64,000 nucleotides of DNA from Escherichia coli (GTDB taxonomy: Bacteria; Pseudomonadota; Gammaproteobacteria; Enterobacterales; Enterobacteriaceae): NCBI RefSeq assembly GCF_003334385.1, contig NZ_QOWN01000017.1; one strand, written 5' to 3'. Under the pieces are notes generated by a model, which did no database searches, was not told where the DNA came from, and saw only the letters and a list, made by a program, of their open reading frames with translations. Positions within the stretch are counted from its first letter, which is position 1. The number at the start of each line of letters is the position of its first letter. The translations under genes were made by a program, and so were the position numbers. This document shows, in pieces, positions 45,700-61,358 of this stretch.

Positions 45700-45894
45700 T
45701 TTCCACTCCTTGTGGTGGCGAAAAAATATCACAAACTAGAATAGCGCCTTGTATAACAATTCAGCGAGTGAATATTTTGAAAATTCAGACAATAAACTGA
45801 GCATTCTTTTTCTCTCTCCATCATGCTTATGGCAAACTACGGTTTTTGCACCATTTTCGCTGCCACGTCGGGCAACAAAGGAAGAAAAATCCAT

Positions 45895-48192
45895 ATGAAA
45901 TGGCTATGTTCAGTAGGAATCGCGGTGAGTCTGGCCCTGCAGCCAGCACTGGCGGATGATTTATTCGGCAACCATCCATTAACGCCCGAAGCGCGGGATG
46001 CGTTCGTCACCGAACTGCTTAAGAAAATGACAGTTGATGAGAAAATTGGTCAGCTGCGCTTAATCAGCGTCGGCCCGGATAACCCGAAAGAGGCGATCCG
46101 CGAGATGATCAAAGACGGTCAGGTTGGGGCGATTTTCAACACCGTAACCCGTCAGGATATCCGCGCCATGCAGGATCAGGTGATGGAATTAAGCCGCCTG
46201 AAAATTCCTCTTTTCTTTGCTTACGACGTGCTGCACGGTCAGCGCACGGTGTTCCCGATTAGCCTCGGTCTGGCCTCGTCTTTTAACCTCGATGCAGTGA
46301 AAACGGTCGGACGTGTCTCTGCTTATGAAGCGGCAGATGATGGCCTGAATATGACCTGGGCACCGATGGTCGATGTCTCGCGCGATCCGCGCTGGGGACG
46401 TGCTTCCGAAGGTTTTGGCGAAGATACGTATCTCACCTCAACAATGGGTAAAACCATGGTGGAAGCGATGCAGGGTAAAAGCCCGGCAGATCGCTACTCG
46501 GTGATGACCAGCGTCAAACACTTTGCCGCATACGGCGCGGTAGAAGGCGGTAAAGAGTACAACACCGTCGATATGAGTCCGCAGCGCCTGTTTAATGATT
46601 ATATGCCGCCGTACAAAGCGGGGCTGGACGCAGGCAGCGGCGCGGTGATGGTGGCGCTGAACTCGCTGAACGGCACGCCAGCCACCTCCGATTCCTGGCT
46701 GCTGAAAGATGTTCTGCGCGACCAGTGGGGCTTTAAAGGCATCACCGTTTCCGATCACGGTGCAATCAAAGAGCTGATTAAACATGGCACGGCGGCAGAC
46801 CCGGAAGATGCGGTGCGCGTGGCGCTGAAATCCGGAATCAACATGAGCATGAGCGACGAGTACTACTCGAAGTATCTGCCTGGGTTGATTAAATCCGGCA
46901 AAGTGACGATGGCAGAGCTGGACGATGCTGCCCGCCATGTACTGAACGTTAAATATGATATGGGGTTGTTTAACGACCCATACAGCCATTTGGGGCCGAA
47001 AGAGTCTGACCCGGTGGATACCAATGCCGAAAGCCGCCTGCACCGTAAAGAAGCGCGTGAAGTGGCGCGCGAAAGCTTGGTGTTGCTGAAAAACCGTCTC
47101 GAAACGTTACCGCTGAAAAAATCGGCCACCATTGCGGTGGTTGGGCCACTGGCGGACAGTAAACGTGACGTGATGGGCAGCTGGTCCGCAGCCGGTGTTG
47201 CCGATCAATCCGTGACCGTACTGACCGGGATTAAAAATGCCGTCGGTGAAAACGGTAAAGTGCTGTATGCCAAAGGGGCGAACGTTACCAGTGACAAAGG
47301 CATTATCGATTTCCTGAATCAGTATGAAGAAGCGGTCAAAGTCGATCCGCGTTCGCCGCAAGAGATGATTGATGAAGCGGTGCAGACGGCGAAACAATCT
47401 GATGTGGTGGTGGCTGTAGTCGGTGAAGCACAGGGGATGGCGCACGAAGCCTCCAGCCGGACCGATATCACTATTCCGCAAAGCCAACGTGACTTGATTG
47501 CGGCGCTGAAAGCCACCGGTAAACCGCTGGTGCTGGTGCTGATGAACGGGCGTCCGCTGGCGCTGGTGAAAGAAGATCAGCAGGCTGATGCGATTCTGGA
47601 AACCTGGTTTGCGGGGACTGAAGGCGGTAATGCAATTGCCGATGTATTGTTTGGCGATTACAACCCGTCCGGCAAGCTGCCAATGTCCTTCCCGCGTTCT
47701 GTCGGGCAGATCCCGGTGTACTACAGCCATCTGAATACCGGTCGCCCGTATAATGCCGACAAGCCGAACAAATACACTTCGCGTTATTTTGATGAAGCTA
47801 ACGGGGCGTTGTATCCGTTCGGCTATGGGCTGAGCTACACCACTTTCACCGTCTCTGATGTGAAACTTTCTGCGCCGACCATGAAGCGTGACGGCAAAGT
47901 GACTGCCAGCGTGCAGGTGACGAACACCGGTAAGCGCGAGGGTGCCACGGTAGTGCAGATGTACTTGCAGGATGTGACGGCTTCCATGAGTCGCCCTGTG
48001 AAACAGCTGAAAGGCTTTGAGAAAATCACCCTGAAACCGGGCGAAACTCAGACTGTCAGCTTCCCGATCGATATTGAGGCGCTGAAGTTCTGGAATCAAC
48101 AGATGAAATATGACGCCGAGCCTGGCAAGTTCAATGTCTTTATCGGCACTGATTCCGCACGCGTTAAGAAAGGCGAGTTTGAGTTGCTGTAA
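45895..48192 (+). CDS. bglX: Periplasmic beta-glucosidase BglX (GH3; 765 aa)
   Basis: Start at ATG (MKWLCSVGIAVSLALQPALA signal peptide). Confidence 0.93.
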   Translation: MKWLCSVGIAVSLALQPALADDLFGNHPLTPEARDAFVTELLKKMTVDEKIGQLRLISVGPDNPKEAIREMIKDGQVGAIFNTVTRQDIRAMQDQVMELSRLKIPLFFAYDVLHGQRTVFPISLGLASSFNLDAVKTVGRVSAYEAADDGLNMTWAPMVDVSRDPRWGRASEGFGEDTYLTSTMGKTMVEAMQGKSPADRYSVMTSVKHFAAYGAVEGGKEYNTVDMSPQRLFNDYMPPYKAGLDAGSGAVMVALNSLNGTPATSDSWLLKDVLRDQWGFKGITVSDHGAIKELIKHGTAADPEDAVRVALKSGINMSMSDEYYSKYLPGLIKSGKVTMAELDDAARHVLNVKYDMGLFNDPYSHLGPKESDPVDTNAESRLHRKEAREVARESLVLLKNRLETLPLKKSATIAVVGPLADSKRDVMGSWSAAGVADQSVTVLTGIKNAVGENGKVLYAKGANVTSDKGIIDFLNQYEEAVKVDPRSPQEMIDEAVQTAKQSDVVVAVVGEAQGMAHEASSRTDITIPQSQRDLIAALKATGKPLVLVLMNGRPLALVKEDQQADAILETWFAGTEGGNAIADVLFGDYNPSGKLPMSFPRSVGQIPVYYSHLNTGRPYNADKPNKYTSRYFDEANGALYPFGYGLSYTTFTVSDVKLSAPTMKRDGKVTASVQVTNTGKREGATVVQMYLQDVTASMSRPVKQLKGFEKITLKPGETQTVSFPIDIEALKFWNQQMKYDAEPGKFNVFIGTDSARVKKGEFELL

Positions 48193-48224
48193 TGCTTTAG
48201 TAAGGGCGCGACGTTTGCGCCCTT

Positions 48225-48260
48225 TGTAGGCCGGATAAGGCGCTCGCGCCGCATCCGGCA
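48225..48260. repeat. REP element
   Basis: tgtaggccggataaggcgctcgcgccgcatccggca, preceded by GGGCGC/GCGCCC hairpin at 48204..48222. Confidence 0.8.
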
Positions 48261-48402
48261 GGAAACGCCGGACCGAATATGCCTCTTAAGTATTTATCTG
48301 ATTCTGCAACTGAATCCTTCCGCTCAAGCTAACCCCGCCATTATCAACTATGCTTTTCTCTTAATTCGCTGAAAACAACAGTAAAAGAATGAGGAAAGCA
48401 TC

Positions 48403-49320
48403 ATGCCACTCTTAAAGCTCTGGGCAGGTTCACTGGTTATGTTGGCAGCCGTGAGCCTGCCGCTACAGGCGGCTTCCCCCGTTAAAGTCGGTTCAAAAAT
48501 CGATACCGAAGGTGCGCTACTCGGCAATATCATTTTGCAGGTGCTGGAAAGCCACGGCGTACCGACGGTGAATAAAGTGCAACTCGGAACGACTCCTGTG
48601 GTGCGCGGGGCGATTACTTCCGGTGAACTGGATATCTATCCGGAATATACCGGCAATGGCGCTTTCTTCTTTAAAGATGAAAACGATGCAGCGTGGAAAA
48701 ACGCGCAGCAAGGTTACGAGAAAGTCAAAAAGCTCGATTCGGAGCACAACAAGTTAATCTGGCTGACGCCCGCGCCTGCAAATAACACCTGGACTATCGC
48801 CGTGCGTCAGGATGTGGCAGAGAAAAATAAACTCACTTCGCTTGCCGACCTGAGTCGTTATCTGCAAGAGGGCGGCACCTTCAAACTGGCAGCCTCGGCA
48901 GAGTTTATCGAACGCGCCGATGCGTTACCCGCGTTTGAAAAAGCCTATGGCTTTAAGCTCGGTCAGGATCAGTTGCTGTCACTGGCTGGTGGCGACACGG
49001 CGGTGACGATCAAAGCCGCTGCCCAGCAAACCTCTGGCGTTAATGCTGCAATGGCTTACGGCACTGACGGCCCGGTAGCGGCGCTGGGGCTGCAAACCTT
49101 AAGCGATCCGCAAGGTGTGCAACCTATCTACGCGCCTGCACCAGTGGTGCGTGAGTCGGTGTTGAGGGAGTATCCGCAAATGGCACAGTGGCTACAGCCA
49201 GTCTTCGCCAGCCTCGATGCAAAAACATTGCAGCAACTGAATGCCAGCATTGCTGTGGAAGGACTGGATGCCAAAAAAGTGGCTGCCGACTACCTGAAAC
49301 AAAAAGGGTGGACGAAGTAA
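48403..49320 (+). CDS. osmF: Glycine betaine ABC transporter periplasmic binding protein OsmF (YehZ)
   Basis: 305-aa ORF with signal peptide; first gene of a 4-gene ABC operon. Confidence 0.93.
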   Translation: MPLLKLWAGSLVMLAAVSLPLQAASPVKVGSKIDTEGALLGNIILQVLESHGVPTVNKVQLGTTPVVRGAITSGELDIYPEYTGNGAFFFKDENDAAWKNAQQGYEKVKKLDSEHNKLIWLTPAPANNTWTIAVRQDVAEKNKLTSLADLSRYLQEGGTFKLAASAEFIERADALPAFEKAYGFKLGQDQLLSLAGGDTAVTIKAAAQQTSGVNAAMAYGTDGPVAALGLQTLSDPQGVQPIYAPAPVVRESVLREYPQMAQWLQPVFASLDAKTLQQLNASIAVEGLDAKKVAADYLKQKGWTK

Positions 49321-49326
49321 TTTCCC

Positions 49327-50484
49327 GTGACTTATTTCCGTATTAATCCTGTTCTGGCGCTGCTGCTGTTGCTGACGGCAATCGCAGCGGCGCTGCCGTT
49401 TATCAGTTACGCGCCTAATCGTTTAGTTTCGGGTGAGGGGCGTCATCTCTGGCAGCTGTGGCCGCAAACGATCTGGATGCTGGTGGGCGTTGGTTGCGCC
49501 TGGCTGACGGCCTGTTTTATTCCCGGTAAAAAAGGCAGCATTTGTGCACTCATTCTGGCGCAATTCGTCTTCGTATTGCTGGTGTGGGGAGCTGGAAAGG
49601 CGGCGACCCAACTGGCGCAAAATGGCAGTGCGCTGGCGCGTACCAGCCTCGGCAGTGGTTTCTGGCTGGCTGCGGCGCTGGCATTGCTGGCCTGTAGCGA
49701 TGCCATCCGCCGAATCTCCACGCATCCGCTGTGGCGCTGGTTGTTGCATATGCAGATTGCCATTATTCCGCTGTGGTTGCTGTACTCCGGCACGCTTAAC
49801 GATCTCTCACTAATGAAAGAATACGCCAACCGTCAGGATGTGTTTGACGACGCGCTGGCACAACATCTGACGTTGCTGTTTGGTGCGGTGCTGCCTGCGT
49901 TAGTGATTGGTGTGCCGTTGGGCATCTGGTGCTACTTTTCCACTGCTCGGCAGGGGGCAATTTTTTCTCTGCTCAATGTGATTCAGACCGTGCCTTCGGT
50001 GGCGCTCTTTGGCCTGTTGATTGCGCCGCTTGCCGCGCTGGTTACGGCCTTTCCGTGGCTGGGGACGCTCGGCATAGCAGGAACCGGAATGACACCCGCA
50101 CTGATTGCGCTGGTGCTCTATGCCTTGCTGCCGCTGGTGCGCGGCGTGGTAGTCGGTTTGAACCAGATCCCGCGCGATGTGCTGGAAAGCGCCAGAGCGA
50201 TGGGGATGAGCGGGGCGCAGCGTTTCCTGCATGTTCAGTTACCGCTGGCGTTACCGGTATTTCTGCGCAGCCTGCGGGTGGTGATGGTGCAAACTGTAGG
50301 TATGGCGGTGATTGCGGCGTTAATCGGTGCAGGCGGTTTTGGTGCGCTGGTTTTCCAGGGGCTGCTAAGCAGCGCCATTGATTTAGTGTTGCTGGGGGTG
50401 ATCCCGGTAATTGTTCTGGCGGTGCTTACCGACGCGCTGTTCGATTTGCTTATCGCACTGCTGAAGGTGAAACGTAATGATTGA
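49327..50484 (+). CDS. yehY: Glycine betaine ABC transporter permease YehY
   Basis: 385-aa polytopic ORF. Confidence 0.9.
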
Positions 50485-51403
50485 ATTTAGCCATGTCAGC
50501 AAACTGTTCGGCGCACAAAAAGCCGTTAACGATCTCAATCTCAATTTTCAGGAAGGGAGTTTTTCGGTGCTGATTGGCACATCTGGCTCCGGCAAATCCA
50601 CCACCCTGAAAATGATTAACCGCCTGGTGGAGCATGACAGCGGAGAGATCCGCTTTGCCGGAGAAGAAATTCGCTCGCTGCCAGTACTGGAGTTGCGCCG
50701 CCGGATGGGCTATGCCATTCAATCTATTGGCCTGTTCCCCCACTGGAGCGTGGCGCAAAACATCGCTACCGTGCCGCAATTACAAAAATGGTCGCGGGCG
50801 CGGATTGACGATCGTATCGACGAATTAATGGCGCTACTGGGGCTGGAGTCAAATTTGCGTGAGCGTTATCCGCATCAGCTTTCCGGTGGTCAGCAGCAAC
50901 GTGTGGGAGTGGCGCGTGCACTGGCTGCCGATCCGCAAGTCTTACTAATGGATGAACCTTTTGGCGCACTGGACCCGGTAACGCGCGGCGCGTTGCAACA
51001 AGAGATGACGCGCATTCACCGTTTGCTGGGGCGTACCATTGTGCTGGTCACTCATGATATTGATGAGGCGCTACGGCTGGCAGAACATCTGGTATTGATG
51101 GATCACGGTGAAGTAGTGCAGCAGGGCAATCCGCTGACGATGCTGACTCGTCCGGCGAATGATTTTGTCCGCCAGTTTTTTGGACGTAGTGAACTGGGTG
51201 TGCGCCTGCTTTCGTTACGTAGTGTGGCGGATTACGTGCGTCGCGAAGAACGAGCAGATGGTGAGGCACTGGCAGAAGAGATGACGCTACGCGATGCGCT
51301 CTCTCTGTTTGTTGCGCGGGGATGCGAGGTGCTGCCGGTGGTGAACATGCAGGGCCAGCCTTGCGGCACGCTGCATTTTCAGGATCTGCTGGTGGAGGCG
51401 TAA
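50477..51403 (+). CDS. yehX: Glycine betaine ABC transporter ATPase YehX
   Basis: 308-aa ORF; Walker [10 protein letters not shown], signature LSGGQQQR. Confidence 0.93.
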
Positions 51404-51407
51404 GCGT

Positions 51408-52139
51408 ATGAAGATGTTGCGCGATCCGCTGTTCTGGCTCATTGCTCTGTTTGTGGCGCTGATTTTCTGGCTGCCTTACAGCCAGCCGCTGTTTGCTGCC
51501 TTGTTCCCACAACTGCCACGACCCGTTTATCAGCAAGAAAGTTTTGCAGCTCTGGCACTGGCTCATTTCTGGCTGGTGGGAATTTCGAGTTTGTTTGCGG
51601 TGATCATTGGCACTGGTGCCGGAATTGCTGTCACTCGCCCGTGGGGCGCGGAATTTCGCCCACTGGTGGAAACTATTGCCGCCGTTGGACAGACTTTTCC
51701 GCCCGTCGCAGTGCTGGCGATCGCCGTTCCGGTGATCGGCTTTGGTCTGCAACCAGCGATTATCGCCTTGATCCTTTACGGTGTGCTGCCCGTCCTGCAG
51801 GCGACACTTGCCGGGCTGGGAGCGATTGATGCCAGCGTGACAGAAGTTGCGAAAGGTATGGGAATGAGTCGTGGTCAGCGACTGCGTAAGGTCGAGCTAC
51901 CGCTGGCGGCTCCGGTGATTCTGGCGGGCGTGCGAACTTCGGTGATTATCAACATTGGTACGGCGACGATCGCCTCAACGGTAGGGGCCAGCACGCTGGG
52001 TACGCCCATCATCATCGGGCTTAGCGGATTTAATACCGCGTATGTGATCCAGGGGGCGTTACTGGTGGCACTGGCGGCGATCATCGCAGACCGCCTGTTT
52101 GAAAGGCTGGTGCAGGCGCTTAGCCAGCACGCAAAATAA
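51408..52139 (+). CDS. yehW: Glycine betaine ABC transporter permease YehW
   Basis: 243-aa polytopic ORF. Confidence 0.9.
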
Positions 52140-52227
52140 AGGTATAACCTGCGAGCATGACGCCACCAATTCCGCCTAACGCCATAAACAGGAACAGGGC
52201 GATGACCCCAATTTTAGCTATGCGCAT
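52120..52227 (-). CDS. yohO: Small membrane protein YohO (35 aa)
   Basis: Not in ORF track; translation gives [35 protein letters not shown]; 3' end overlaps yehW by 20 nt (convergent). Confidence 0.75.
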
Positions 52228-52286
52228 AATGCACTCCTTATGTTAACGAAAGGATTGTACAGTAAAGCGCATTTGTTAACGAATCA

Positions 52287-52979
52287 TTAAATGCCGAGTG
52301 GGAAAATATCATGGCCTTGTTCTTGCCAACTGGTGAGTTGCTGCTGTTGGGCGGAGGTTCGATTTTCACCGCACCACACCAGCAATGTACGGCCTTCGAA
52401 TAGTTCAGGGCGTAGTTGATTGAGCGAGTGGGCGAGGACATCAATGCGCCATCCTTGTTGACTGGCAATCCAGCCCTCCAGCCACAGACGGGTGGTATCC
52501 TGAATATTCCAGCCAACCACCAGCGCATCTTTACCCTGTTTTTTACGTGCCGAAGCCAGACAAATGGCGATGTAGTTGATCAGTACGCCGTCGAGGATCG
52601 CCAGCAGCGCCTGGAGAGTCGGTTGTTGGCACTGAAGCCGTCGGCGCAGAGGAATAAACAGATGTGTGGTGAGTGTCTGGGCGGGGTAATCCTGACCGCG
52701 CTCTTTGATCCACGTTCGCAGGCTATGTAGATTGCCGCTTTGCAGGTAAGTCAGTAATGTTTCTTGCTGATCGCGCCAGCCGTTCTGCACATCAACATTT
52801 TCATTACTGAGCAGCATTTTAACTTTGCTGACCTGCACGCCGTTGTCGATCCAGCGTTTGATCTCGCGGATCCGGTCAATATCGGCATCGTTGAACAGCC
52901 GATGACCGCCGTCTGTCCGTTGCGGTTTCAGCAATCCGTAACGCCTCTGCCACGCGCGTAACGTGACAGGGATTAAGGG
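52287..52979 (-). pseudogene. mlrA: mlrA (yehV) MerR-family curli regulator, 5'-truncated by prophage insertion
   Basis: Translation matches MlrA from ...PVTLRAWQRRYGLLKPQRTDGG to the C-terminus; the first ~17 codons are replaced by unrelated sequence with an in-frame stop at 53004..53006 and no start codon. Confidence 0.8.
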
Positions 52980-53008
52980 TAAACTAATTGATTTTGCAAG
53001 TTTTTATT

Positions 53009-54295
53009 TTACCCAGCTTTCTTATGGGGCATACATGGGACACTTTCAGATAGTCTTTTGTTAAGGAGTTCTATCTGTTCGTGATTGTTGTCTTTCATCC
53101 ATGCTCCGTAAACATTGAATACCATTTGTGCGTTTGTGTGGCCCATCTGGCTTGCGATAAAACTAGGATTAGCTCCAGCGGCAAGTGACCAGCATGCATA
53201 AGTATGCCTGGATTGGTACGATTTTCTGTGTCTCAGACCTGCGCGTTTTAAGATACTTGTCCATGACTCCCTGATGGAGTCAACCTTATAGTGCGGTCCG
53301 GAAAACTGCCGCTGTTTTATTACCTGAGGACTAAAAACAAAAGTGCATTTATGCACAGTACTTCTCCCATATTCCCTCTGCTTTACCTCTACAGAATGTT
53401 GCTTTCCAAGCATGGTCATTTCCGCCTGACTTTTAAGAGCATCAATAGCTGGTTGAACCAGATGAATTGTCCTTCCGGTGCCAGCATCGGTTTTTGGTGG
53501 AGTGAATTCGCCAAGTTTTGTATAATTCCTACGGATGGTTATAGTCCTTGCTTTAAGATCTATATCTTCCCATGCCAGCGATACCAGCTCCCCGTGACGA
53601 ATACCCGTGTATACAGCGAGAATCCACAGGTTTTTTGTTTGTTGATGACGGCAAGCCTCAATAAAACGAATAAATTCGTCACGGGTGAGAGGATCTGGTT
53701 TTACCTTGGACTTTTTTAAGGGGGCCAGACCGTTAAATGGGTTTCCTGAGGTATAACCATTATCTGTTGCAAATTGAAACATTCCAGCTATGGTTGTCAT
53801 ATAGTAGTTTACTGTGACCACTGAGCGCCCTTTTATGGAAGAAATCTTTCCATTAGAAAGCTTTTGGTAACCGGTCAACAAATCTCTCCTTGCGAAAAGT
53901 AAATCCTCTTTTGTTATGGATGAAACCAGTTTTTTCTCACCCAACATAGGCAACATGTTTTTAATTACTGACTGGTAACGATTAAGTGCATTCGCACAAA
54001 TCTCAATTTTCTTAAGGTCCAACCATTTTTCCGAAAGTGCCTTAACGGTTATCTCTCTTTTTCCCAGACCAAAGTGTTTCAGGTTAGGGGAATTAGGGAA
54101 CTGTGTAGCGTAGTCGAAACTCCCCATTCTGATTGCAAAACAAACGGAAGTGCGAAGTTCACCTGCGATCTTCCGGTTTTTGGCGGTGTCAGGAACACCG
54201 AGGTTTTCTCTGACACGTTTGCCATTATAGTGAAACCATATACGGAGTGATCCTCCATGGTTTTCAACGCCTGTCGGGTATGATACGTTACTCAT
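53009..54295 (-). CDS. int: Phage integrase (tyrosine recombinase)
   Basis: 428-aa ORF; GGGAGG SD; C-terminal catalytic region with conserved R...HxxR...Y pattern (RHTYACW, final Y in NVYGAWM). Confidence 0.85.
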   Translation of the reverse strand: MSNVSYPTGVENHGGSLRIWFHYNGKRVRENLGVPDTAKNRKIAGELRTSVCFAIRMGSFDYATQFPNSPNLKHFGLGKREITVKALSEKWLDLKKIEICANALNRYQSVIKNMLPMLGEKKLVSSITKEDLLFARRDLLTGYQKLSNGKISSIKGRSVVTVNYYMTTIAGMFQFATDNGYTSGNPFNGLAPLKKSKVKPDPLTRDEFIRFIEACRHQQTKNLWILAVYTGIRHGELVSLAWEDIDLKARTITIRRNYTKLGEFTPPKTDAGTGRTIHLVQPAIDALKSQAEMTMLGKQHSVEVKQREYGRSTVHKCTFVFSPQVIKQRQFSGPHYKVDSIRESWTSILKRAGLRHRKSYQSRHTYACWSLAAGANPSFIASQMGHTNAQMVFNVYGAWMKDNNHEQIELLNKRLSESVPCMPHKKAG

Positions 54296-54328
54296 TAAAC
54301 CTCCCAGACGTCCAGGAGCATTAACAGG

Positions 54329-54583
54329 TTAACCGGAACTTGCATTTTTGGCACCTGGTTGTTTCTGGTTTTCGATCCATCGCATAATTTCTTCGATGTT
54401 GTACAGGCATTCACTGTAATGCCCAGGATCACCTTCTACAGCGTAATGGCGGTATTCTTTTCCCTGCATCCATGACTTTCTTCTGGCCCGCTCGATGGTG
54501 CCGGGCTTTAGCCCTGTTGATGCAATAAGGACTCTCTCCGTACACCATTTGCTGGGGGTTATCTGATAGATGATTGTCTGCAT
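54329..54583 (-). CDS. Putative excisionase / small DNA-binding protein
   Basis: 84-aa basic ORF immediately upstream of int, same strand; resembles excisionase-like phage proteins (from memory). Confidence 0.5.
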   Translation of the reverse strand: MQTIIYQITPSKWCTERVLIASTGLKPGTIERARRKSWMQGKEYRHYAVEGDPGHYSECLYNIEEIMRWIENQKQPGAKNASSG

Positions 54584-54739
54584 GCCAGCCTCATAAAACT
54601 TTCATCCACGGCAGTGGCACCACATTTCAAACATTCGCTTCACAACTTCACGACAGTAGAAGCCATCAACATCTCGCGTCAGGTCATAGTGATTGCCGTA
54701 ACGCTGGTGGACCCATCGTTCAAATGCTTTATTCATTCT

Positions 54740-54982
54740 TTACTTCCTTTTTATGGCTCGTAATTTTTTCAGGTGCTTTTCCTGCTCAGTGTCCGCGAGA
54801 ATTTTGCGGTACTCCTGGTGGTCAATATGTTCGAACAGGCAGTTTAACTCACCAATGCGTACCCGCCCGGATCGTCCGTCCACCCGTCGAAAGAACACTG
54901 AGTGCTCAGTGATGCGAGTAATCACCACGGGGTATCCGGCTCTGTCCGTGTATATCTGACCGCGTTGAATCAAAGCGAACAT
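54740..54982 (-). CDS. Hypothetical phage protein (80 aa)
   Basis: Track ORF 54740..55018; ATG at 54982 preceded by GGGGA. Confidence 0.45.
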   Translation of the reverse strand: MFALIQRGQIYTDRAGYPVVITRITEHSVFFRRVDGRSGRVRIGELNCLFEHIDHQEYRKILADTEQEKHLKKLRAIKRK

Positions 54983-55066
54983 GTGGTTATCCCCATCGAC
55001 AAATCGAGAACACAACAAACGCTGCTGCGAATACCACCCCCAGAGTTACGATTGCATCAGGCCAGC

Positions 55067-56011
55067 TCATTGATTCACCTCCTGCCTGTCGTCCGGCATT
55101 CGCTCACTACAGCTTATCCAACCATCCGGAGTTACCGGAACTTGTGGAATGGCTGTCTGCTCTCGAACGTCATTAGGCGCTATAGGTTCTGCTGCCAACT
55201 GACTGGCATATTTGTTAATGGTAACGATAAGCTCTTGCTCAGCCTCATCCAGACAATCACCGATACCTCGCCTGTCACCGTCAAAATCATCGAAATCGGC
55301 ACGAATCCTGGCAACCTTCAGGATTGCGGACAACACCTCACTAGGAATTGCCGGATAGTTGGTTGACGTTTCCGCGATTTCCCGAAAATTATTGGTTGAC
55401 GAATTCTTGTTTTCCCGAAAGTTTCCGGACTGAAGCATGGCGGCGCGGCAGGCGTTCCATATTTCGGCAGCAATATCGCGCTCGCTATCGGTTAATTTGT
55501 ACGTTGAAACATAGCCAGAGAGCATTTCTACGTTTTCCGGAGTTGCTTCTTCAGGCACTACCGGTGCTGGCTCACGTATTACAGGCTCGCCCATGCGTGA
55601 TTCTCCCTGCGCCTCTTTCACCATGTGGTCATTGATTTGCTCCAGTCGCCGAACGTGCTCATCAGCTTCAAGCGCTCGCCGTTTCCAGATGGACAGGTCT
55701 TCACGAGCGCCCTGATATGCGTCACCGTATTCGCCGTTAAATACTGGCGCTGGCGGGGCGATGCGTCCAAGCAACTTATTTACCTCTTTCGCCATCGCGT
55801 CATATTTATCTAAATAGCGATTAGCTTCTAAGCAGACTCGGTGCATCTGATCTGAGTTAACTCGTTTAACTGGATCTGCTTCCAATGATGCCAGTGCAAT
55901 TCGTGCCAGTTCTTCCGCTTCTTCTGCTGGCAGTACAACGTTGCTACCCGGTCCGTATGTTTCGCGCCACTGCTTGATTGTCAGCAGTCGCCCTTTGGTA
56001 ATAGTGATCAT
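55067..56011 (-). CDS. Hypothetical phage protein (314 aa), shares RIALASLEA(D/E)PV motif with the 56428..56877 product
   Basis: Strong SD AAGAGGA; paralogous N-terminal motif; C-terminal GWISCSERMPDD resembles DUF551-type phage proteins (from memory). Confidence 0.6.
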   Translation of the reverse strand: MITITKGRLLTIKQWRETYGPGSNVVLPAEEAEELARIALASLEADPVKRVNSDQMHRVCLEANRYLDKYDAMAKEVNKLLGRIAPPAPVFNGEYGDAYQGAREDLSIWKRRALEADEHVRRLEQINDHMVKEAQGESRMGEPVIREPAPVVPEEATPENVEMLSGYVSTYKLTDSERDIAAEIWNACRAAMLQSGNFRENKNSSTNNFREIAETSTNYPAIPSEVLSAILKVARIRADFDDFDGDRRGIGDCLDEAEQELIVTINKYASQLAAEPIAPNDVREQTAIPQVPVTPDGWISCSERMPDDRQEVNQ

Positions 56012-56014
56012 GGG

Positions 56015-56203
56015 TTATCCTCTTAGCGCCACAACGCGCACTTCTGGGTCAAAGGATGATGAATTTTCATCTGTAATATCAGCAACATGACCTACAAAGT
56101 CGTTATACTCACACTCTGATTGTTCATAGCCCTGCCAGACCACGACAGCCTCAGGAGGCATTTTTCTGAGCTTGCTGATTAATTGCCTCACCGTCAGTGA
56201 CAT
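56015..56203 (-). CDS. Hypothetical small phage protein (62 aa)
   Basis: Perfect SD AAGGAG in an AAGGAGAGTGATATG junction; acidic C-terminus. Confidence 0.55.
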   Translation of the reverse strand: MSLTVRQLISKLRKMPPEAVVVWQGYEQSECEYNDFVGHVADITDENSSSFDPEVRVVALRG

Positions 56204-56204
56204 A

Positions 56205-56351
56205 TCACTCTCCTTTACCCGCTGCTTTCGCCTGCTCTTTAGCGAGTCGCTCCGCTTCTCTGAAATCCCAATCTACTCGATGTGCTATATCAATTGCAGA
56301 ACGCACGGTCCGTTCAATTAGCGTATCCAGGTTATCAATTGTCATTGCCAT
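56205..56351 (-). CDS. Possible small phage protein (48 aa)
   Basis: ORF below track threshold; helical charged sequence; stop TGA lies in the coupling junction to the next gene; no clear SD. Confidence 0.3.
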   Translation of the reverse strand: MAMTIDNLDTLIERTVRSAIDIAHRVDWDFREAERLAKEQAKAAGKGE

Positions 56352-56427
56352 ATCTGGATTGCGAGATAAAATCTCCGCCCTCTGAATCTGCTAGTTGTTG
56401 CAGGTTTCAAGTAATGAGTTAGCCATA

Positions 56428-56877
56428 TCACTCTCCTTTGATGCCAATGTTTACAGCCTGGCAAGCCTCTTTGAGTACCCAGTCAACAGCGTCTTTCCAT
56501 GCTCCGGTTTCGACTGGCGGATTTTCACGCTTAACCTGTTCATAGAAACGCACTGCTTTAATCAATCCTTCTGATGTCAGTGGCACAGGCGGGGCAGTGA
56601 ATAACGCCTGAATTTCATAGTTCGGTCTGTCGTTGCAATCCTCTTTTGTCGGTACATATTTCCAGTCACCAACCCACGAATCCCCCTGAGAGTCCGTAAC
56701 ACCTTTTTTCACGTAGCGATATCGCCACGCGACTGGCTCTGCTTCCAACGATGCCAGTGCGATACGAAACACATTGGCAAGCAGGCTGCTTGAAGATTGG
56801 TTATCGTGCGCCGGGTCGCTCAGGAAACCAGTGATGAATGATTTAATTTCCGCGTTTTCTCTGGTAATAGTGGTCAT
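56428..56877 (-). CDS. Hypothetical phage protein (149 aa), paralogous motif with 55067..56011
   Basis: SD GAGGA; start overlaps upstream stop (ATGA). Confidence 0.6.
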   Translation of the reverse strand: MTTITRENAEIKSFITGFLSDPAHDNQSSSSLLANVFRIALASLEAEPVAWRYRYVKKGVTDSQGDSWVGDWKYVPTKEDCNDRPNYEIQALFTAPPVPLTSEGLIKAVRFYEQVKRENPPVETGAWKDAVDWVLKEACQAVNIGIKGE

Positions 56878-57083
56878 TTATTAATCCTCAAAACTTTATG
56901 CCCGGGCGCAAAAGCACGTGTTTTGTCTTTGCTTATTCGCCAGCCATCCTTGCGCGCCTCTTTTGCACAGCCAGCCCATGACGTACCGATATACTCACCG
57001 AAGTCTGGCGTTTGATATTTACCATTTGTACACTGGCAACAATCACAGTAGAGATGCATGGTGTAACTTGCGGAAATAGCCAT
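56874..57083 (-). CDS. Small Cys-rich phage protein (69 aa; CDCCQC...C, possible zinc ribbon)
   Basis: Start at internal ATG of track ORF 56874..57191 with perfect SD (AAGGAGCCTGATATG); upstream gene stop sits in the SD spacer. Confidence 0.55.
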   Translation of the reverse strand: MAISASYTMHLYCDCCQCTNGKYQTPDFGEYIGTSWAGCAKEARKDGWRISKDKTRAFAPGHKVLRINK

Positions 57084-57084
57084 A

Positions 57085-57276
57085 TCAGGCTCCTTTAGTG
57101 CGTAAGTGGTTTTTCCAGCGGTTTTGCGCCGCGCTGCGCTTATCTTTGATTCCCTCTCTGGCAATTCCAGAATATAAGTACAACACCACACGGCGATTGC
57201 TAACTCTCAACCACTGGCTGGGATAGCAACGTCTGTATACACGGGAGATAAGCATCTTTGCTTTACGGTTTTTCAT
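57085..57276 (-). CDS. Small basic phage protein (63 aa), tandem paralogue A
   Basis: N-terminus MKNRKAKMLISR...WLRVSNRRV conserved with the adjacent upstream ORF at protein level; ATGA-coupled. Confidence 0.5.
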   Translation of the reverse strand: MKNRKAKMLISRVYRRCYPSQWLRVSNRRVVLYLYSGIAREGIKDKRSAAQNRWKNHLRTKGA

Positions 57277-57455
57277 CTTACTGCGTACCCTTTCTTCCGC
57301 CTGTTCTGTGACGCGCTAGGCTTTTTGCAACAACTGTGCCCCATCACCCCGCAACACCCCGTCAACCTCACTCGTCTGTTACTAATCCTCAACCATCGCC
57401 AGACCCCAACACCGTTTCTGCGAGCTAACAGAATTTTTGCCTTACGGTTTTTCAT
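57273..57455 (-). CDS. Small basic phage protein (60 aa), tandem paralogue B
   Basis: MKNRKAKILLAR...WLRISNRRV; SD AGGAGA; start overlaps upstream stop (ATGA). Confidence 0.5.
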   Translation of the reverse strand: MKNRKAKILLARRNGVGVWRWLRISNRRVRLTGCCGVMGHSCCKKPSASQNRRKKGYAVR

Positions 57456-57628
57456 CGTTTTGTTCTCCTGCGTTTCTTTGCTGCTCGTCGTGCCGCTGCA
57501 ATACCGGTATGGCGGCGCTTTGGTGCCGGGATGATGTTGTCAGCCATCAGGACATGTGGCTTTGCAATTAGCGCAGAAGCCCAAAAACGAGTCGGGTACG
57601 GTAACAAGCCGATACATGCCACACGCAT
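57452..57628 (-). CDS. Small basic phage protein (58 aa)
   Basis: Below track threshold; SD AGGAGG 6 nt before ATG; start overlaps the Ea22-like stop (TAATG) and stop overlaps next start (ATGA). Confidence 0.5.
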   Translation of the reverse strand: MRVACIGLLPYPTRFWASALIAKPHVLMADNIIPAPKRRHTGIAAARRAAKKRRRTKR

Positions 57629-58443
57629 TACTCACCTCCTTTGATGCGAATGCCTGCGGCGCGGATTGCAGCGATGACTTCAGAAACTTTGTATGCCATT
57701 ACCGTTTGGTAATCATCGTGAAAATCTGTTCGATGAAGCATGCTGCTACGTTCCGGGAGCGATATTTCCCGAGCATCCAGTTCCTTAACGCGTTCCTCCA
57801 GTTCGTAGACCCTGCATTGTTCTCTATCATCAATCAGATATAACCCAAGACATTCGCTTTCTACCCAACCGCCAAAATCATGATCGTAACGCTCACATGA
57901 AAACTCACCGTCACCGTCCTTTGTTGGAATGGTGTAACTATCTAATGTGCCACCATATGTCGGCACATTTCCCAATGTTGGATGCTCAATCCACATGAAA
58001 AATGCACGTCCGGTTATTGGGCAAATATCTGGCCGCCATTGGTTACGAACAGCCTTGGTTTCGGATAATTCTTCAGCGTGTTGTTTTACTTCCTCAAGCT
58101 CAACTCTCAGCTTCCCTACCGTTAGCGCAATATCCTCGTTCTCCTGATCGCGGCTTTTGATGTATTGCAGGTTTCTTTCCCGTTCATCCAGCAGTGCCAG
58201 CACGGTAGCCGGGTTAGCCTCTGCTATGAATTCAGCGTTTGCATAAGCCTGAGCATCTGTTTCAACCAGGCAGTTAACGTGACATTCTGCAATTACGCCA
58301 CCGGGTTCTCCTTTCCATTTTTGACAAACAAAAACTCCTGTTAAATTGCCGTGTTGGTTAACAGATGTATGCCCTACGATGTAGCTTCCTTTAGTTGCTT
58401 TCTCTGCCTTTTCACGCAGTGCCTGATAGTCAATCTTGCTCAC
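57628..58443 (-). CDS. Ea22-like phage protein (271 aa)
   Basis: GTG start with SD AAGGAGG; contains LLDERERNLQYIKSRDQENEDIALTVGKLRVELEE and C-terminal GIRIKGGE, which I recall as characteristic of lambda Ea22. Confidence 0.65.
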   Translation of the reverse strand: MSKIDYQALREKAEKATKGSYIVGHTSVNQHGNLTGVFVCQKWKGEPGGVIAECHVNCLVETDAQAYANAEFIAEANPATVLALLDERERNLQYIKSRDQENEDIALTVGKLRVELEEVKQHAEELSETKAVRNQWRPDICPITGRAFFMWIEHPTLGNVPTYGGTLDSYTIPTKDGDGEFSCERYDHDFGGWVESECLGLYLIDDREQCRVYELEERVKELDAREISLPERSSMLHRTDFHDDYQTVMAYKVSEVIAAIRAAGIRIKGGE

Positions 58444-58744
58444 TGGCAGCCTCCTTTGCCGGGATTTCTAACTTTTGAGTGGTTGTATCAAATTCAAACA
58501 ACTTAACCACGTCATCAAACAGGACATAATCACCATCAGGATTTTCAGTCATATCTGCGCCACAATCCTGACCGCACGAGTCGCAACCATCCATATCAAG
58601 CTCGTATCGCTTCAGGTTTGCGATATTTGATAAATTCAGCGCCAGTACAGCCAGGTCATAAACCTCTTCGGCAGTGACATCGCTGTTCAGTCCCATTTCA
58701 TGGCGATATATGATTTTTTCTACTCGTTGTTTTGTGATCGTCAT
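58430..58744 (-). CDS. Hypothetical phage protein (about 104 aa)
   Basis: Track ORF 58430..58768; ATG at 58744 (MTITKQR...); alternative start at 58696 possible; acidic, Cys-containing. Confidence 0.45.
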   Translation of the reverse strand: MTITKQRVEKIIYRHEMGLNSDVTAEEVYDLAVLALNLSNIANLKRYELDMDGCDSCGQDCGADMTENPDGDYVLFDDVVKLFEFDTTTQKLEIPAKEAASEQD

Positions 58745-59015
58745 TTTTCTCTTCACTCCGATATACAAGGATTACTACACCCCCTCTGCTGATTGCGCGA
58801 GCTGGATCCCCTGGTTCCATGCCGTCAATTCCGAAGGCTTCGGAAAACGCATTCATTGCCTTCTGGCGTTCATCCTGCTTACGGCGTTTATTCCATTTTT
58901 TCAGGAACAACAGCGACAGCCACCGTCCGCTGCAGAACACGATGTAAAAATAACCAAGGAGCGCCAGGCCGACATTCAGGGCCGTTTCTATGGTTAGTTG
59001 TGAGTCAGTTGCCAT
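58698..59015 (-). CDS. Small membrane protein (105 aa; one N-terminal TM helix, then basic stretch)
   Basis: Hydrophobic segment LNVGLALLGYFYIVFCSGRWLSLLFL followed by KKWNKRRKQDERQK; 3' end overlaps next gene so true stop/start uncertain. Confidence 0.4.
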   Translation of the reverse strand: MATDSQLTIETALNVGLALLGYFYIVFCSGRWLSLLFLKKWNKRRKQDERQKAMNAFSEAFGIDGMEPGDPARAISRGGVVILVYRSEEKNDDHKTTSRKNHISP

Positions 59016-59253
59016 TTCTTACCTGTTTAAGTAACTGGTTGAACATAACACTTAGGGGATTGCTGTATCCAAACGGCAGATTGTTTACGCAGTACAGAAT
59101 CATTTTGTTTTTTTCTCCAGTTCGTACTATTAACCCATTCCACAATAACCGTGATAATTCATTACTGATAGAAGTTGCGCTTCTTCCAAGTGCGAGGGAT
59201 ATATCTTCTCTACTGCAATCTGGATTTTCCTGGATATACTCGATAACGGTCAT
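59005..59253 (-). CDS. Putative winged-helix DNA-binding protein (82 aa)
   Basis: Track ORF 59005..59295; ATG at 59253 (MTVIEYIQENPDCSREDISLALGRSATSISNELSRLLWNGLIVRTG...) resembles a wHTH. Confidence 0.45.
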   Translation of the reverse strand: MTVIEYIQENPDCSREDISLALGRSATSISNELSRLLWNGLIVRTGEKNKMILYCVNNLPFGYSNPLSVMFNQLLKQVRNGN

Positions 59254-59263
59254 GTGGTCCCTT

Positions 59264-59845
59264 TTACTTAATATCTGTTTCGGATTGCATGCCATGAGTA
59301 TTCATTTCGTTAATAATTTCATCCAGAAGGATTTCAAGCCCTTCTCGACCCATATCTGAAAGAATGAAACCTTTATCAGGGGAAGTAGTGAGCATTTTCT
59401 GATAAAGAAACAGCGCTCTTCCCATTCCTTCAGTTTCGCCGTATTTTTGAATTAAATTCCATTCAATATACTGTTGTAAGGCAAATCGAATGGGGCCGGG
59501 ATATATCGTCATAAACCCATACATCCCGTTATATACCACGGCGTGTTCAGTTGTTCCGTGTTCATTCAGGATATCAATTGTGCCGTTCTTGTCTTCTTCT
59601 TCGTTGATGAATGTCGTCACATACAACCATCGCCACTGAGCAACCTTCATCTCAACCGGAAGTTTACCCAGTAATCCTGCTTCGTCGGCTTGCGCCAGAC
59701 ACTGAAGGATACGTAAACCTCGCACATTAGGAGTATCGAATTCTCCGGCATCCAGACGACGTATGGCGTCGTGATAATCAATCGTCATACTGCCAGTTCG
59801 TATACCATTGGCTGTTGCTTCAGCCTGGAATTCATCGTATTGCAT
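59264..59845 (-). CDS. Hypothetical phage protein (193 aa)
   Basis: SD GAGGA; no recognisable motifs. Confidence 0.55.
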   Translation of the reverse strand: MQYDEFQAEATANGIRTGSMTIDYHDAIRRLDAGEFDTPNVRGLRILQCLAQADEAGLLGKLPVEMKVAQWRWLYVTTFINEEEDKNGTIDILNEHGTTEHAVVYNGMYGFMTIYPGPIRFALQQYIEWNLIQKYGETEGMGRALFLYQKMLTTSPDKGFILSDMGREGLEILLDEIINEMNTHGMQSETDIK

Positions 59846-59850
59846 GATAT

Positions 59851-60039
59851 TTATTCCTCATCTTCATCTTCATCTGCTGGTGCAATAACGTCATATCCTG
59901 CCTTTTCTGCAATAAACAGGAATGTTGAAAGAGTTCCTACAAGTTCATCGTCATGAACATGGCGAATGAATATTACTTTCCCGTTTTTGATGGTCAGCAA
60001 TATTCTGGTTTGTTCGTGTTCTGCTGTTTTCTGATGCAT
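59851..60039 (-). CDS. Small phage protein with acidic tail (62 aa; ...APADEDEDEE)
   Basis: SD GGGAGA; stop 6 nt before next start. Confidence 0.5.
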   Translation of the reverse strand: MHQKTAEHEQTRILLTIKNGKVIFIRHVHDDELVGTLSTFLFIAEKAGYDVIAPADEDEDEE

Positions 60040-60233
60040 TATTATCTCCCGTATGCTTTACGCAGAAATAAGCAGGCAATATGCATGTAATTTTCACCGT
60101 ATTGTGCAATAAGGCAGGCGGTCTTGTGTGATGCCATATTCTTTATAAAAGTCACAATAAAGCCTCCTGTGGATTAAGGTTGTAACAATCCCCGGCGATA
60201 AAACCGCAATAAACGTTCAGGGCATATTTGTTG

Positions 60234-60599
60234 TTATTGCGCTAATTCTTTTTCGGCAGCAGCTTTTGTATACTCACATGCAAAACTCAGAATTTCGCTG
60301 CCGAGTGTTTTCGTTTCGTGATTACTGGACATATGTAATACCTGTGTTGCATGCAATAAATGATAAACATTTACCGCAAATGAATCAGGCTCCAGACAAA
60401 TGCCTTCGTAATTATCTTGCTGTGAGGTTGTTTCTGTCATTGCTCCTGAAGTGCATGCGAGCCTGTTTTTGACAATTCTCTTTTCTCTAATCACTATATC
60501 GGCAACATCTATTGCCTTTACAACCTCCGGGAGAAGTTCCGGGTTTGTATAATCAAAGTCATCAACATGGAGAACAGTTATGTTTTCGAACTTTTTCAT
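60234..60599 (-). CDS. Hypothetical phage protein (121 aa); C-terminal half paralogous to the N-terminal domain of the 60728..61276 product
   Basis: SD GAGGAAG; alignment LEPDSFAVNVYHLL...KTLGSEILSFACEYTKAAA versus LELDSFALNIANLL...KELGIEVMEFIHEYALSAA. Confidence 0.55.
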   Translation of the reverse strand: MKKFENITVLHVDDFDYTNPELLPEVVKAIDVADIVIREKRIVKNRLACTSGAMTETTSQQDNYEGICLEPDSFAVNVYHLLHATQVLHMSSNHETKTLGSEILSFACEYTKAAAEKELAQ

Positions 60600-60727
60600 G
60601 GCTTCCTCAGCTGACTTATATGTTCTGCTATATAGCGAGTCTCAGAAGTGTTTTCATATTGAGACTGTTTCCACAATGATTGATAAAAATGTTCGCATGT
60701 ACCTTGAAGGGCGAAGCGGCGATTATG

Positions 60728-61276: not shown

Positions 61277-61329
61277 ATATCCGCCAACAATTTTAAATTG
61301 AATCAAATCAAGTTATAATTGATGGTGCG

Positions 61330-61358
61330 ATATTATGTTTTGGGAAACAGGCTGTCAA
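61330..61358 (-). promoter_or_regulatory. Sigma70-type promoter (pL-like) reading leftward, away from cI
   Basis: On minus strand: TTGACA (61358..61353), 17-bp spacer, TAATAT (61335..61330); about 45 nt upstream of the 61276 start. Confidence 0.6.

What the first reader, a model, noticed from the sequence alone, without database searches (positions are those of the whole stretch)
52930..54300. Lambdoid prophage integrated inside mlrA (yehV), removing the regulator's N-terminal MerR HTH
The mlrA reading frame is K-12-like from ...PVTLRAWQRRYGL onward, but upstream of about 52968..52980 the sequence is unrelated: frame continues ...KLAKSISLPLI with an in-frame stop at 53004..53006 and no start codon. 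A tyrosine integrase ends 38 bp from the junction. mlrA/yehV is the known attachment site of Stx1-converting and related prophages in O157:H7-type E. coli, where insertion impairs curli and biofilm expression. The prophage right arm, and therefore any cargo, lies outside the window.
Basis: partly seen in the sequence, partly recalled or inferred. Interest (0 to 1): 0.75.

Follow-up and report, generated by a model that had tools for sequence, protein, structure and literature searches.

The report
Prophage inserted in curli regulator mlrA

Summary
mlrA (minus strand) is intact from codon 17 to its stop (52287..52970). That stretch has 0 differences in 684 nt from a K-12-like mlrA. Similarity ends at a 20-bp core, CACGCGCGTAACGTGACAGG (52951..52970), identical to the annotated attachment site of phage VT1-Sakai (Sp15).

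From 52971 to the window end, GC falls from 53.6% to 45.6% and the genes are lambdoid early genes: Int (53009..54295, 97.9% identical to VT1-Sakai Int), Xis, Ea22-like genes, CI, Cro and Rha/Ant. The published left-junction PCR primers give the diagnostic 824-bp product in silico.

The insertion moves the promoter, the start codon and the first 16 codons to the far prophage end. Those codons encode helix 1 of the MerR helix-turn-helix; the recognition helix stays. The phage arm supplies no start codon.

About 520 of 5,426 complete E. coli genomes carry the same int-mlrA junction, mostly O157:H7/O55:H7. The literature already documents curli and biofilm loss, restoration on excision, and run-off expression of the distal fragment.

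Two caveats apply. The host backbone is E. coli C-like, not O157-type. The attR end and any cargo lie outside the window, and the two related prophages inspected carry no annotated stx.

This is a known phenomenon of low novelty.

The parts
52287..52970 (-). Distal (3') part of mlrA/yehV: codons 17-243 plus the stop codon. It lacks the promoter, RBS, start codon and helix alpha-1 of the MerR HTH.
   Evidence: The translation is identical to intact MlrA from P17 onward, with 0/684 nt differences. Pfam finds MlrA_C, MlrA_helical and MerR_1 model positions 16-68 only.
52951..52970 (.). attL common core CACGCGCGTAACGTGACAGG. It encodes MlrA P17-W23 on the minus strand, and the crossover lies within it.
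   Evidence: It is shared by the window attL, the K-12-like attB and the EC2 attR. It is identical to the misc_recomb 'attachment site of Enterobacteria phage VT1-Sakai' and to the first 20 nt of the BP-4795 record. There is a single copy in the window.
52971..53008 (.). Phage-derived arm between the core and the int stop codon. It begins GATTAAGGG..., which mimics the host ATTAAT with one extra G. It contains the in-frame TAA at 53004..53006 and no canonical start codon.
   Evidence: It is near-identical to the BP-4795 and VT1-Sakai attP-side sequence.
53009..54295 (-). Tyrosine integrase of lambda Int architecture, 428 aa, transcribed towards the mlrA remnant.
   Evidence: Pfam finds Arm-DNA-bind_2 at 7-70 and Phage_integrase at 203-396. 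PHROG phrog_1 integrase scores 9e-83. It is 97.9% identical to VT1-Sakai Int, 97.7% to BP-4795 Int and 99.3% to JLK-2012 Int. By inspection, motifs TGIRHGE at 230, SRHTY at 362, GHTN at 385 and NVYGAW at 394 are present.
54329..54583 (-). Excisionase (Xis), 84 aa.
   Evidence: PHROG phrog_539 excisionase scores 1.6e-37. The identical gene is annotated xisR in EC2 and SCU-105.
54740..61306 (-). Lambdoid early-left (b/exo-side) accessory region. It holds a DUF4222 protein, DUF551/Ea22-like proteins, small hypothetical ORFs, and an HTH protein that matches the PHROG family labelled 'CII-like regulator' (60728..61306).
   Evidence: ORF list, PHROG hits and annotation of homologous stretches in EC2 and SCU-105.
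61423..62118 (-). CI-like repressor: an XRE HTH plus a LexA/S24 autocleavage domain.
   Evidence: PHROG phrog_4 transcriptional repressor scores 4.7e-54 and phrog_6201 CI-like repressor scores 1.1e-29.
62246..62536 (+). Cro-like regulator, divergent from cI.
   Evidence: PHROG phrog_35 transcriptional repressor scores 3.3e-19. The divergent arrangement is seen in the ORF list.
62533..63240 (+). Rha/Ant-family phage regulatory protein.
   Evidence: PHROG phrog_63 anti-repressor Ant scores 3e-46. The homologue in SCU-105 is annotated as a Rha family regulator.
52971..64000 (.). Left 11 kb of the prophage, cut by the window end. GC is 45.6% against 53.6% in the flanking chromosome.
   Evidence: The region is mosaic: the best complete genome covers only 79% of it.

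Best explanation
A temperate lambdoid phage integrated into mlrA by site-specific recombination. Its lambda-Int-type tyrosine integrase recombined the phage attP with a 20-bp identical sequence in the chromosome, CACGCGCGTAACGTGACAGG, which encodes MlrA residues 17-23 at the start of the MerR recognition helix.

The window contains attL, followed by int, xis and the early and immunity region. The insertion carries the mlrA promoter, ribosome-binding site, start codon and codons 1-16 (HTH helix alpha-1) to attR, roughly 50 kb away in related strains. The phage arm supplies no replacement start codon.

The cell therefore cannot make DNA-binding MlrA. By inference from published work, it loses MlrA- and RpoS-dependent activation of csgD, and so curli and biofilm expression are reduced.

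The remnant is undecayed, and int and xis are full-length. If the rest of the prophage is competent, excision would precisely restore mlrA. Transcription running out of int can continue into the remnant, because no terminator-like site was found between them on that strand.

Shown here: the junction, the core, the integrase family, the split of the HTH and the population frequency. Inferred: the phenotype, the ability to excise, and the cargo.
For: The junction and reading frame were read directly. The three-way alignment of attL, attB and attR defines the 20-bp core. That core matches the annotated VT1-Sakai attachment site and the BP-4795 genome end.

Int has an arm-binding domain plus a catalytic domain. 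It is 97.7-99.3% identical to the integrases of the VT1-Sakai, BP-4795, YYZ-2008 and JLK-2012 group; the VT1-Sakai record annotates its insertion in yehV.

The Shaikh and Tarr primers F and B match perfectly at 53461..53480 and 52657..52679. That gives the 824-bp band reported as diagnostic for an occupied mlrA (PMC3874044).

GC drops from 53.6% to 45.6% at the junction. PHROG hits identify int, xis, CI, Cro and Ant.

In all, 526 of 5,426 genomes have int and mlrA in one place. Among genomes carrying this int at 90% nucleotide identity or more, the sampled rows almost always show mlrA annotated next to it.

MerR_1 matches only from model position 16. Homologues with solved structures (CarH, GlnR, MerR) align from MlrA residue 1-6, so residues 1-16 are part of the fold.

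The literature states that a prophage in mlrA disrupts the DNA-binding motif and reduces curli and biofilm. It also reports that excision restores native mlrA and that the distal fragment is transcribed by run-off on induction (PMC5931665, PMC3874044, PMC8065619).
Against: attR and the rest of the prophage are not in the window. Completeness, inducibility and cargo therefore cannot be judged for this particular element.

No exact source genome was found, and the best match covers 79% of the prophage part. The EC2 relative has an IS1 insertion and a frameshifted capsid gene, so some members of the group are defective.

The phenotype was not measured. Published work shows that curli expression also depends on rpoS and other loci (PMC3874044).
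Confidence: 0.93

Rival explanations
1. The element is a degenerate, non-excisable prophage remnant, with deleted or IS-disrupted late genes or a missing attR. On this reading mlrA is permanently inactivated, not reversibly interrupted.
For: The EC2 relative, which shares the identical int-mlrA junction, carries an IS1 insertion, a frameshifted major capsid gene and other pseudogenes. The papers read here note that many O157 prophages were regarded as degenerate (PMC5931665).
Against: int, xis, cI and cro are full-length ORFs in the window. The mlrA remnant shows no decay, with 0/684 nt differences. Sp15 carries a 97.9% identical Int and does excise and replicate (PMC5931665, citing Asadulghani et al.). 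SCU-105 has an apparently complete 50-kb prophage with a matching mlrA 5' remnant.
Confidence: 0.3
2. The truncated gene still makes a working MlrA. NCBI's PGAP annotation of identical loci calls a 233-aa 'HTH-type transcriptional regulator MlrA' that starts at an ATT codon (window 52988..52986) and is not flagged as a pseudogene.
For: PGAP annotates such a CDS in EC2 and SCU-105, and mlrA is listed among the features under the match in every occupied genome sampled. Transcription from int could read through, since no terminator-like site lies between int and the remnant on the minus strand. The recognition helix, wing, helical domain and C-terminal domain are retained. Recombinant distal fragments restored some Congo-red affinity (PMC5931665, citing Uhlich 2016).
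Against: ATT is a very poor initiator, and no canonical start precedes codon 29. Helix alpha-1 of the HTH is replaced by the unrelated residues ISLPLI. The native promoter is absent. Experiments show that occupied strains are curli and biofilm deficient, and that distal fragments did not restore biofilm or raise csgD expression (PMC5931665, PMC3874044).
Confidence: 0.04
3. The junction is an assembly chimera that joins a prophage end to mlrA.
For: None specific. Prophage repeats do cause misassemblies in draft genomes.
Against: The identical junction is present in more than 500 independently finished genomes and in the VT1-Sakai and BP-4795 phage records. It falls exactly on the known att core.
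Confidence: 0.01

Closest known systems
Sp15 / VT1-Sakai (E. coli O157:H7 Sakai) and CP-933V (EDL933): Stx1-converting prophages integrated in yehV (mlrA)
   Same: The 20-bp att core and the insertion point in mlrA are the same. Int is 97.9% identical. The int-xis orientation towards the distal mlrA fragment is the same, and so is the diagnostic left-junction amplicon.
   Different: The host backbone here is E. coli C-like, not O157:H7. The early region is a different mosaic: nucleotide matches to Stx phages cover 60% or less of the 11 kb. Presence of stx1 is unknown because the late region lies outside the window.
Phage BP-4795 (Stx1, O84:H4) and Escherichia phage JLK-2012 (O55:H7 DEC5E)
   Same: The BP-4795 record begins with the same core and a near-identical 38-bp arm. 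Int is 97.7% identical to BP-4795 and 99.3% to JLK-2012.
   Different: The accessory and immunity genes differ. Neither phage covers the window's prophage part as a whole.
Prophages with no annotated stx in mlrA of non-STEC strains (EC2, urinary tract; SCU-105, healthy-carrier rectal swab)
   Same: EC2 is 100% identical over 52700..54400 and 99.9% identical over 55% of the 11-kb arm. SCU-105 covers 79% at 98.1% identity. Both have the mlrA 5' remnant at the far end, next to btsS.
   Different: The immunity and replication modules differ from the window. Their late regions therefore cannot be taken as a description of this prophage.
yecE-targeting 'intR' integrases of Stx1a/Stx2a phages (O145, O111 and related strains)
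   Same: They have the same integrase architecture and about 82% amino-acid identity (79% nucleotide).
   Different: They lie next to yecE (a DUF72 gene), not mlrA. This indicates a different attachment specificity.

Membership tests
mlrA/yehV-integrating lambdoid prophages (Sp15/VT1-Sakai, CP-933V, BP-4795 group) | Integrase closely related to the integrases of this group | tested here: met
   Identity over the full 428 aa is 97.9% to VT1-Sakai Int, 97.7% to BP-4795 and YYZ-2008 Int, and 99.3% to JLK-2012 Int.
mlrA/yehV-integrating lambdoid prophages (Sp15/VT1-Sakai, CP-933V, BP-4795 group) | The 20-bp common core CACGCGCGTAACGTGACAGG at the host-phage junction | tested here: met
   There is an exact match at 52951..52970. 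It is identical to the annotated VT1-Sakai attachment site and to the start of the BP-4795 record.
mlrA/yehV-integrating lambdoid prophages (Sp15/VT1-Sakai, CP-933V, BP-4795 group) | Insertion in the proximal coding region of mlrA, splitting the DNA-binding motif | tested here: met
   The remnant starts at MlrA residue 17. MerR_1 matches only from model position 16.
mlrA/yehV-integrating lambdoid prophages (Sp15/VT1-Sakai, CP-933V, BP-4795 group) | Diagnostic left-junction PCR product (primers F and B, 824 bp) | tested here: met
   Both primers match with 0 mismatches, and the in-silico product spans 52657..53480, which is 824 bp. The primers and band size come from PMC3874044.
mlrA/yehV-integrating lambdoid prophages (Sp15/VT1-Sakai, CP-933V, BP-4795 group) | A second core copy (attR) followed by the mlrA 5' end at the other prophage end | not testable with these tools
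   It lies outside the window: there is no second core and no site for primer A. It is present in the relatives EC2 and SCU-105.
Stx-converting phage | stxAB genes between the Q antiterminator and the lysis genes | not testable with these tools
   The late region is outside the window. The two related prophages inspected (EC2, SCU-105) have no stx annotated.
Lambda-Int-type tyrosine recombinase | N-terminal arm-DNA-binding domain plus a C-terminal catalytic domain with the conserved Arg, His and Tyr motifs | tested here: met
   Pfam finds Arm-DNA-bind_2 (2e-23) and Phage_integrase (1.1e-17). Motifs TGIRHGE, SRHTY, GHTN and NVYGAW were located by inspection. Catalytic roles are assigned by analogy and were not tested.
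Lambdoid prophage | The gene order int-xis, early-left accessory genes, then cI divergent from cro | tested here: met
   ORF order and PHROG assignments. Replication, Q, lysis and structural modules could not be seen.
Functional MerR-family regulator MlrA | Complete N-terminal winged HTH (alpha-1 and alpha-2) with its own start codon and promoter | tested here: not met
   Residues 1-16 are absent. No ATG, GTG or TTG lies between the in-frame stop and codon 29. MerR_1 model positions 1-15 are unmatched.
Curli/biofilm-deficient phenotype of mlrA-occupied strains | Reduced csgD and curli expression, rescued by intact mlrA or by prophage excision | not testable with these tools
   This is known only from the literature (PMC3874044, PMC5931665).

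The most novel reading that the evidence does not exclude
The undecayed distal mlrA fragment is kept because it is used. On this reading, read-through from int or pL during SOS induction expresses an N-terminally truncated MlrA (from about residue 17 or 29 to 243). That protein cannot bind DNA but retains the helical and C-terminal domains. In this non-O157 host it would act as a phage-controlled decoy in the DgcM/PdeR/MlrA c-di-GMP switch. Alternatively, the unseen late region of this unique mosaic prophage may carry unusual cargo.
Probability: 0.1. Interest if true: 0.4.

Novelty: already known. Interest (0 to 1): 0.12.

Why it matters
This is a textbook case of a prophage acting as a reversible switch on a host regulator. 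While the phage is integrated, the strain should be impaired in MlrA-dependent csgD activation, and hence in curli, cellulose and biofilm; excision rebuilds the gene.

For this window its value is mainly in annotation. It explains the truncated mlrA, places the prophage boundary at 52970/52971, and shows that the element belongs to the Sp15/BP-4795 integrase group, but in an E. coli C-like backbone instead of an O157:H7 one.

One practical point follows. NCBI's PGAP annotates the truncated gene in occupied genomes as an ordinary MlrA CDS with an ATT start, so gene presence/absence screens will miss this inactivation.

Tried and rejected
- **Source genome.** I looked for the exact source genome in order to read attR and the cargo. 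No complete E. coli genome or phage record covers more than 79% of the 11-kb prophage arm, so attR was defined in the relative EC2 instead.
- **Second att copy.** I searched the window for a second core copy and for the mlrA 5' end (primer A). Neither is present.
- **Reconstitution of mlrA by the phage arm.** Some phages rebuild their target gene, so I checked this. It is rejected here: the arm mimics only ATTAA with a 1-nt shift, has an in-frame TAA, and has no canonical start codon.
- **PGAP's ATT-start MlrA.** I considered whether the 233-aa CDS is a real product. It is rejected as an annotation convenience.
- **Promoters and terminators at the junction.** The scan found no minus-strand promoter-like or terminator-like site between int and mlrA'. 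This is only weak, negative support for read-through.
- **Primary literature.** The Shaikh and Tarr 2003 paper is not held in the library. Its primers and findings are cited through PMC3874044 and PMC5931665.
- **Searches not run.** I did not run deep protein-homology or structure searches, because identities of 97% or more to characterised phages made them unnecessary.
Full report
**Observation**

mlrA lies on the minus strand. Translating 52287..53021 in the mlrA frame gives ESWVK*KLAKSISLPLIPVTLRAWQRRYGLLKPQ... and runs on to the native C-terminus ...HDIFPLGI*.

Intact MlrA from a K-12-like genome (locus L002) is 243 aa and begins MALYTIGEVALLCDINPVTLRAWQ. The window keeps residues 17-243 with 100% protein identity and 0/684 nucleotide differences.

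Upstream of P17 the sequence is unrelated to mlrA. There is an in-frame TAA at 53004..53006. The 11 codons between that stop and P17 contain no ATG, GTG or TTG. The first canonical in-frame start is TTG at 52934, which is codon 29.

A 428-aa ORF occupies 53009..54295 on the minus strand. The last base of its stop codon is 38 bp from the first phage-specific base, 52971.

**Attachment site**

I aligned the window junction (attL), an unoccupied mlrA (attB, L002), and the far end of the prophage in strain EC2 (attR, L004). EC2 is 100% identical to the window across 52700..54400. The three sequences share the common core CACGCGCGTAACGTGACAGG, which lies at 52951..52970 in the window.

The core occurs once in the window, with none expected by chance. 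It is the same 20 bp that the VT1-Sakai (Sp15) GenBank record annotates as 'attachment site of Enterobacteria phage VT1-Sakai' within 'yehV. The BP-4795 genome record starts with this core and a near-identical 38-bp arm.

On the mlrA strand the core encodes P17-W23. Just beyond the core the phage arm reads GATTAAGGG, where the host reads ATTAATATC. This is a short imperfect extension of homology with one extra G. It shifts the frame, so the arm does not rebuild the N-terminus.

**The inserted element**

GC content falls from 53.6% (40000..52970) to 45.6% (52971..64000).

- **Integrase.** It has a lambda-Int-type Arm-DNA-bind_2 domain and a Phage_integrase catalytic domain. It is 97.9% identical to VT1-Sakai Int, 97.7% to BP-4795 and YYZ-2008 Int, and 99.3% to JLK-2012 Int.
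- **Neighbouring genes.** Next come an excisionase (54329..54583), DUF4222 and Ea22-like accessory genes, a CI-type repressor with an S24 autocleavage domain (61423..62118), a divergent Cro-like gene (62246..62536), and a Rha/Ant regulator (62533..63240).
- **Module type.** This is the left arm and immunity region of a lambdoid prophage, and the window ends inside it.
- **Mosaicism.** The arm is mosaic. No complete E. coli genome covers more than 79% of it (SCU-105, 98.1% identity). EC2 matches 55% at 99.9%, and no phage record covers more than 60%.

**In-silico PCR**

The left-junction primers used to score mlrA occupancy are F, CACCGGAAGGACAATTCATC, and B, AACAGATGTGTGGTGAGTGTCTG (listed in PMC3874044, from Shaikh and Tarr). 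They match perfectly at 53461..53480 on the minus strand and 52657..52679 on the plus strand. The product is 824 bp, the size reported as diagnostic for a prophage in the proximal part of mlrA (PMC3874044). Primer A, which lies in the displaced mlrA 5' end, has no site in the window.

**What is lost from MlrA**

Pfam still finds MlrA_C, MlrA_helical and MerR_1 in the remnant, but MerR_1 matches only from model position 16 to 68 of 69. MerR-family proteins with solved structures (CarH, GlnR, MerR, CadR) align to MlrA starting at residues 1-6, so residues 1-16 belong to the DNA-binding fold.

From general knowledge of MerR-family structures, residues of about 4-15 form helix alpha-1, and the stretch PVTLRAWQRRYG forms the recognition helix alpha-2. 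The insertion therefore splits the helix-turn-helix rather than removing all of it. It also removes the start codon, the RBS and the promoter.

**How common it is**

A 1.7-kb query across the junction finds mlrA in 5,413 of 5,426 complete genomes. The whole int-mlrA junction is present in 526 of them, about 9.7%.

A query consisting mainly of int finds 534 genomes. Of these, 456 have 95% nucleotide identity or more. An evenly spaced sample of the ranking shows mostly O157:H7 and O55:H7 strains at 97.7%, nearly always with mlrA annotated alongside. A smaller group of 31 genomes at 99% or more comes from human, wastewater and other non-O157 isolates, and the window belongs with these.

Sixty-six genomes have a 79%-identical integrase that sits next to yecE (a DUF72 gene) instead. 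This is a related integrase with a different target.

**Host and cargo**

The 25 kb of chromosome to the left of the junction is 100% identical to strains such as E. coli C, WG5, C9 and several human and bovine isolates. It is not an O157:H7 backbone.

attR and the late genes lie outside the window, so cargo cannot be determined. In the two relatives inspected, the prophage ends with a DinI-like gene, a 22-codon mlrA 5' pseudogene, and then btsS.

- **SCU-105** has Q, three tRNA genes, a DUF6645 gene and lysis genes, but no stx.
- **EC2** has no stx. It carries an IS1 insertion, a frameshifted capsid gene, an ompC-like porin gene and a Lom-family gene.

Because the immunity and replication modules of these relatives differ from the window, they illustrate the possibilities but do not describe this element.

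**Mechanism and consequences**

The following are shown here:
- site-specific integration by an Sp15-type tyrosine integrase at the 20-bp core;
- separation of the mlrA promoter and 16 N-terminal codons from the rest of the gene;
- no replacement start codon.

The following are taken from the literature:
- MlrA enhances RpoS-dependent csgD expression.
- Spontaneous or induced excision regenerates native mlrA.
- The distal fragment is strongly transcribed after SOS induction (about 62-fold at 30 °C by qRT-PCR). Recombinant fragments restored some Congo-red affinity but did not restore biofilm formation, and the SOS-induced fragment did not raise csgD expression (PMC5931665; also PMC3874044 and PMC8065619).

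Two features of the window are consistent with run-off transcription. int is transcribed towards the remnant, and no terminator-like site lies between them on that strand; that is weak evidence.

**Rival explanations**

- **Defective remnant that cannot excise.** This remains possible for this particular element, at about 0.3 as a sub-case, because the late region is unseen and EC2's relative is damaged. Against it, int, xis, cI and cro are full-length, and the mlrA remnant is undecayed.
- **Functional MlrA from the ATT start.** PGAP annotates an ATT start at 52988..52986 in identical loci. This is very unlikely, given the missing helix alpha-1, the missing promoter and the published phenotypes.
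- **Assembly artefact.** This is excluded by the recurrence of the junction in hundreds of finished genomes.

**Verdict**

The only instance-specific points are the non-O157 host backbone, the unique mosaic of early genes, and the unknown cargo. Interest is low.

Noticed in passing
window 63406..63482 (+) and 63507..63594 (+): Rfam gathering-level matches to isrK Hfq-binding RNA (58.7 bits) and C4 antisense RNA (78.8 bits) lie side by side inside the prophage. They sit just downstream of the Rha/Ant gene. This looks like an RNA-based antirepressor/immunity control module.
   Followed up: no
window 52986..52988 (-); loci L001 2588..3289 and L008 1311..2012: In the occupied genomes inspected (EC2, SCU-105), NCBI PGAP annotates the truncated mlrA as an ordinary 233-aa 'HTH-type transcriptional regulator MlrA' CDS. 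It starts at an ATT codon inside the phage arm and is not flagged as a pseudogene. Only the 22-codon 5' piece at attR is flagged. Gene-content screens would therefore miss this inactivation.
   Followed up: partly
hit H184, NZ_CP074756.1 4955387..4956735 (strain F2_407_2_2): The same integrase (97.5% nt identity) lies next to a FimD/PapC usher gene instead of mlrA. The match begins at query base 8 (window 52947), just before the 20-bp core. This may be a secondary integration site or a rearrangement between prophages.
   Followed up: no
hits H187-H193; phage records LC5678xx: A sister integrase (about 82% aa and 79% nt identity) is consistently next to yecE (a DUF72 gene). The pair could be used to map the determinants of att-site specificity.
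   Followed up: no
window 57085..57276 (-) and 57273..57455 (-): Two adjacent, overlapping small ORFs of 63 and 60 aa both begin MKNRKAK and are arginine-rich. They look like a tandem duplication of a small basic protein in the early-left region.
   Followed up: no
window 31203..31280 (+) and 42929..43009 (+): There are Rfam matches to naRNA4 (a REP-derived nucleoid-associated RNA, 88.3 bits) and to the Peptidase-S11 cis-regulatory RNA (72.8 bits) in the chromosomal part of the window. Both are ordinary E. coli features.
   Followed up: no
window 52139..52230 (-) and 48403..52139 (+): The chromosomal flank is the standard bglX, yehZYXW (glycine betaine ABC transporter), yohO, mlrA arrangement. 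It is 100% identical to E. coli C-like strains, and nothing unusual was seen.
   Followed up: partly
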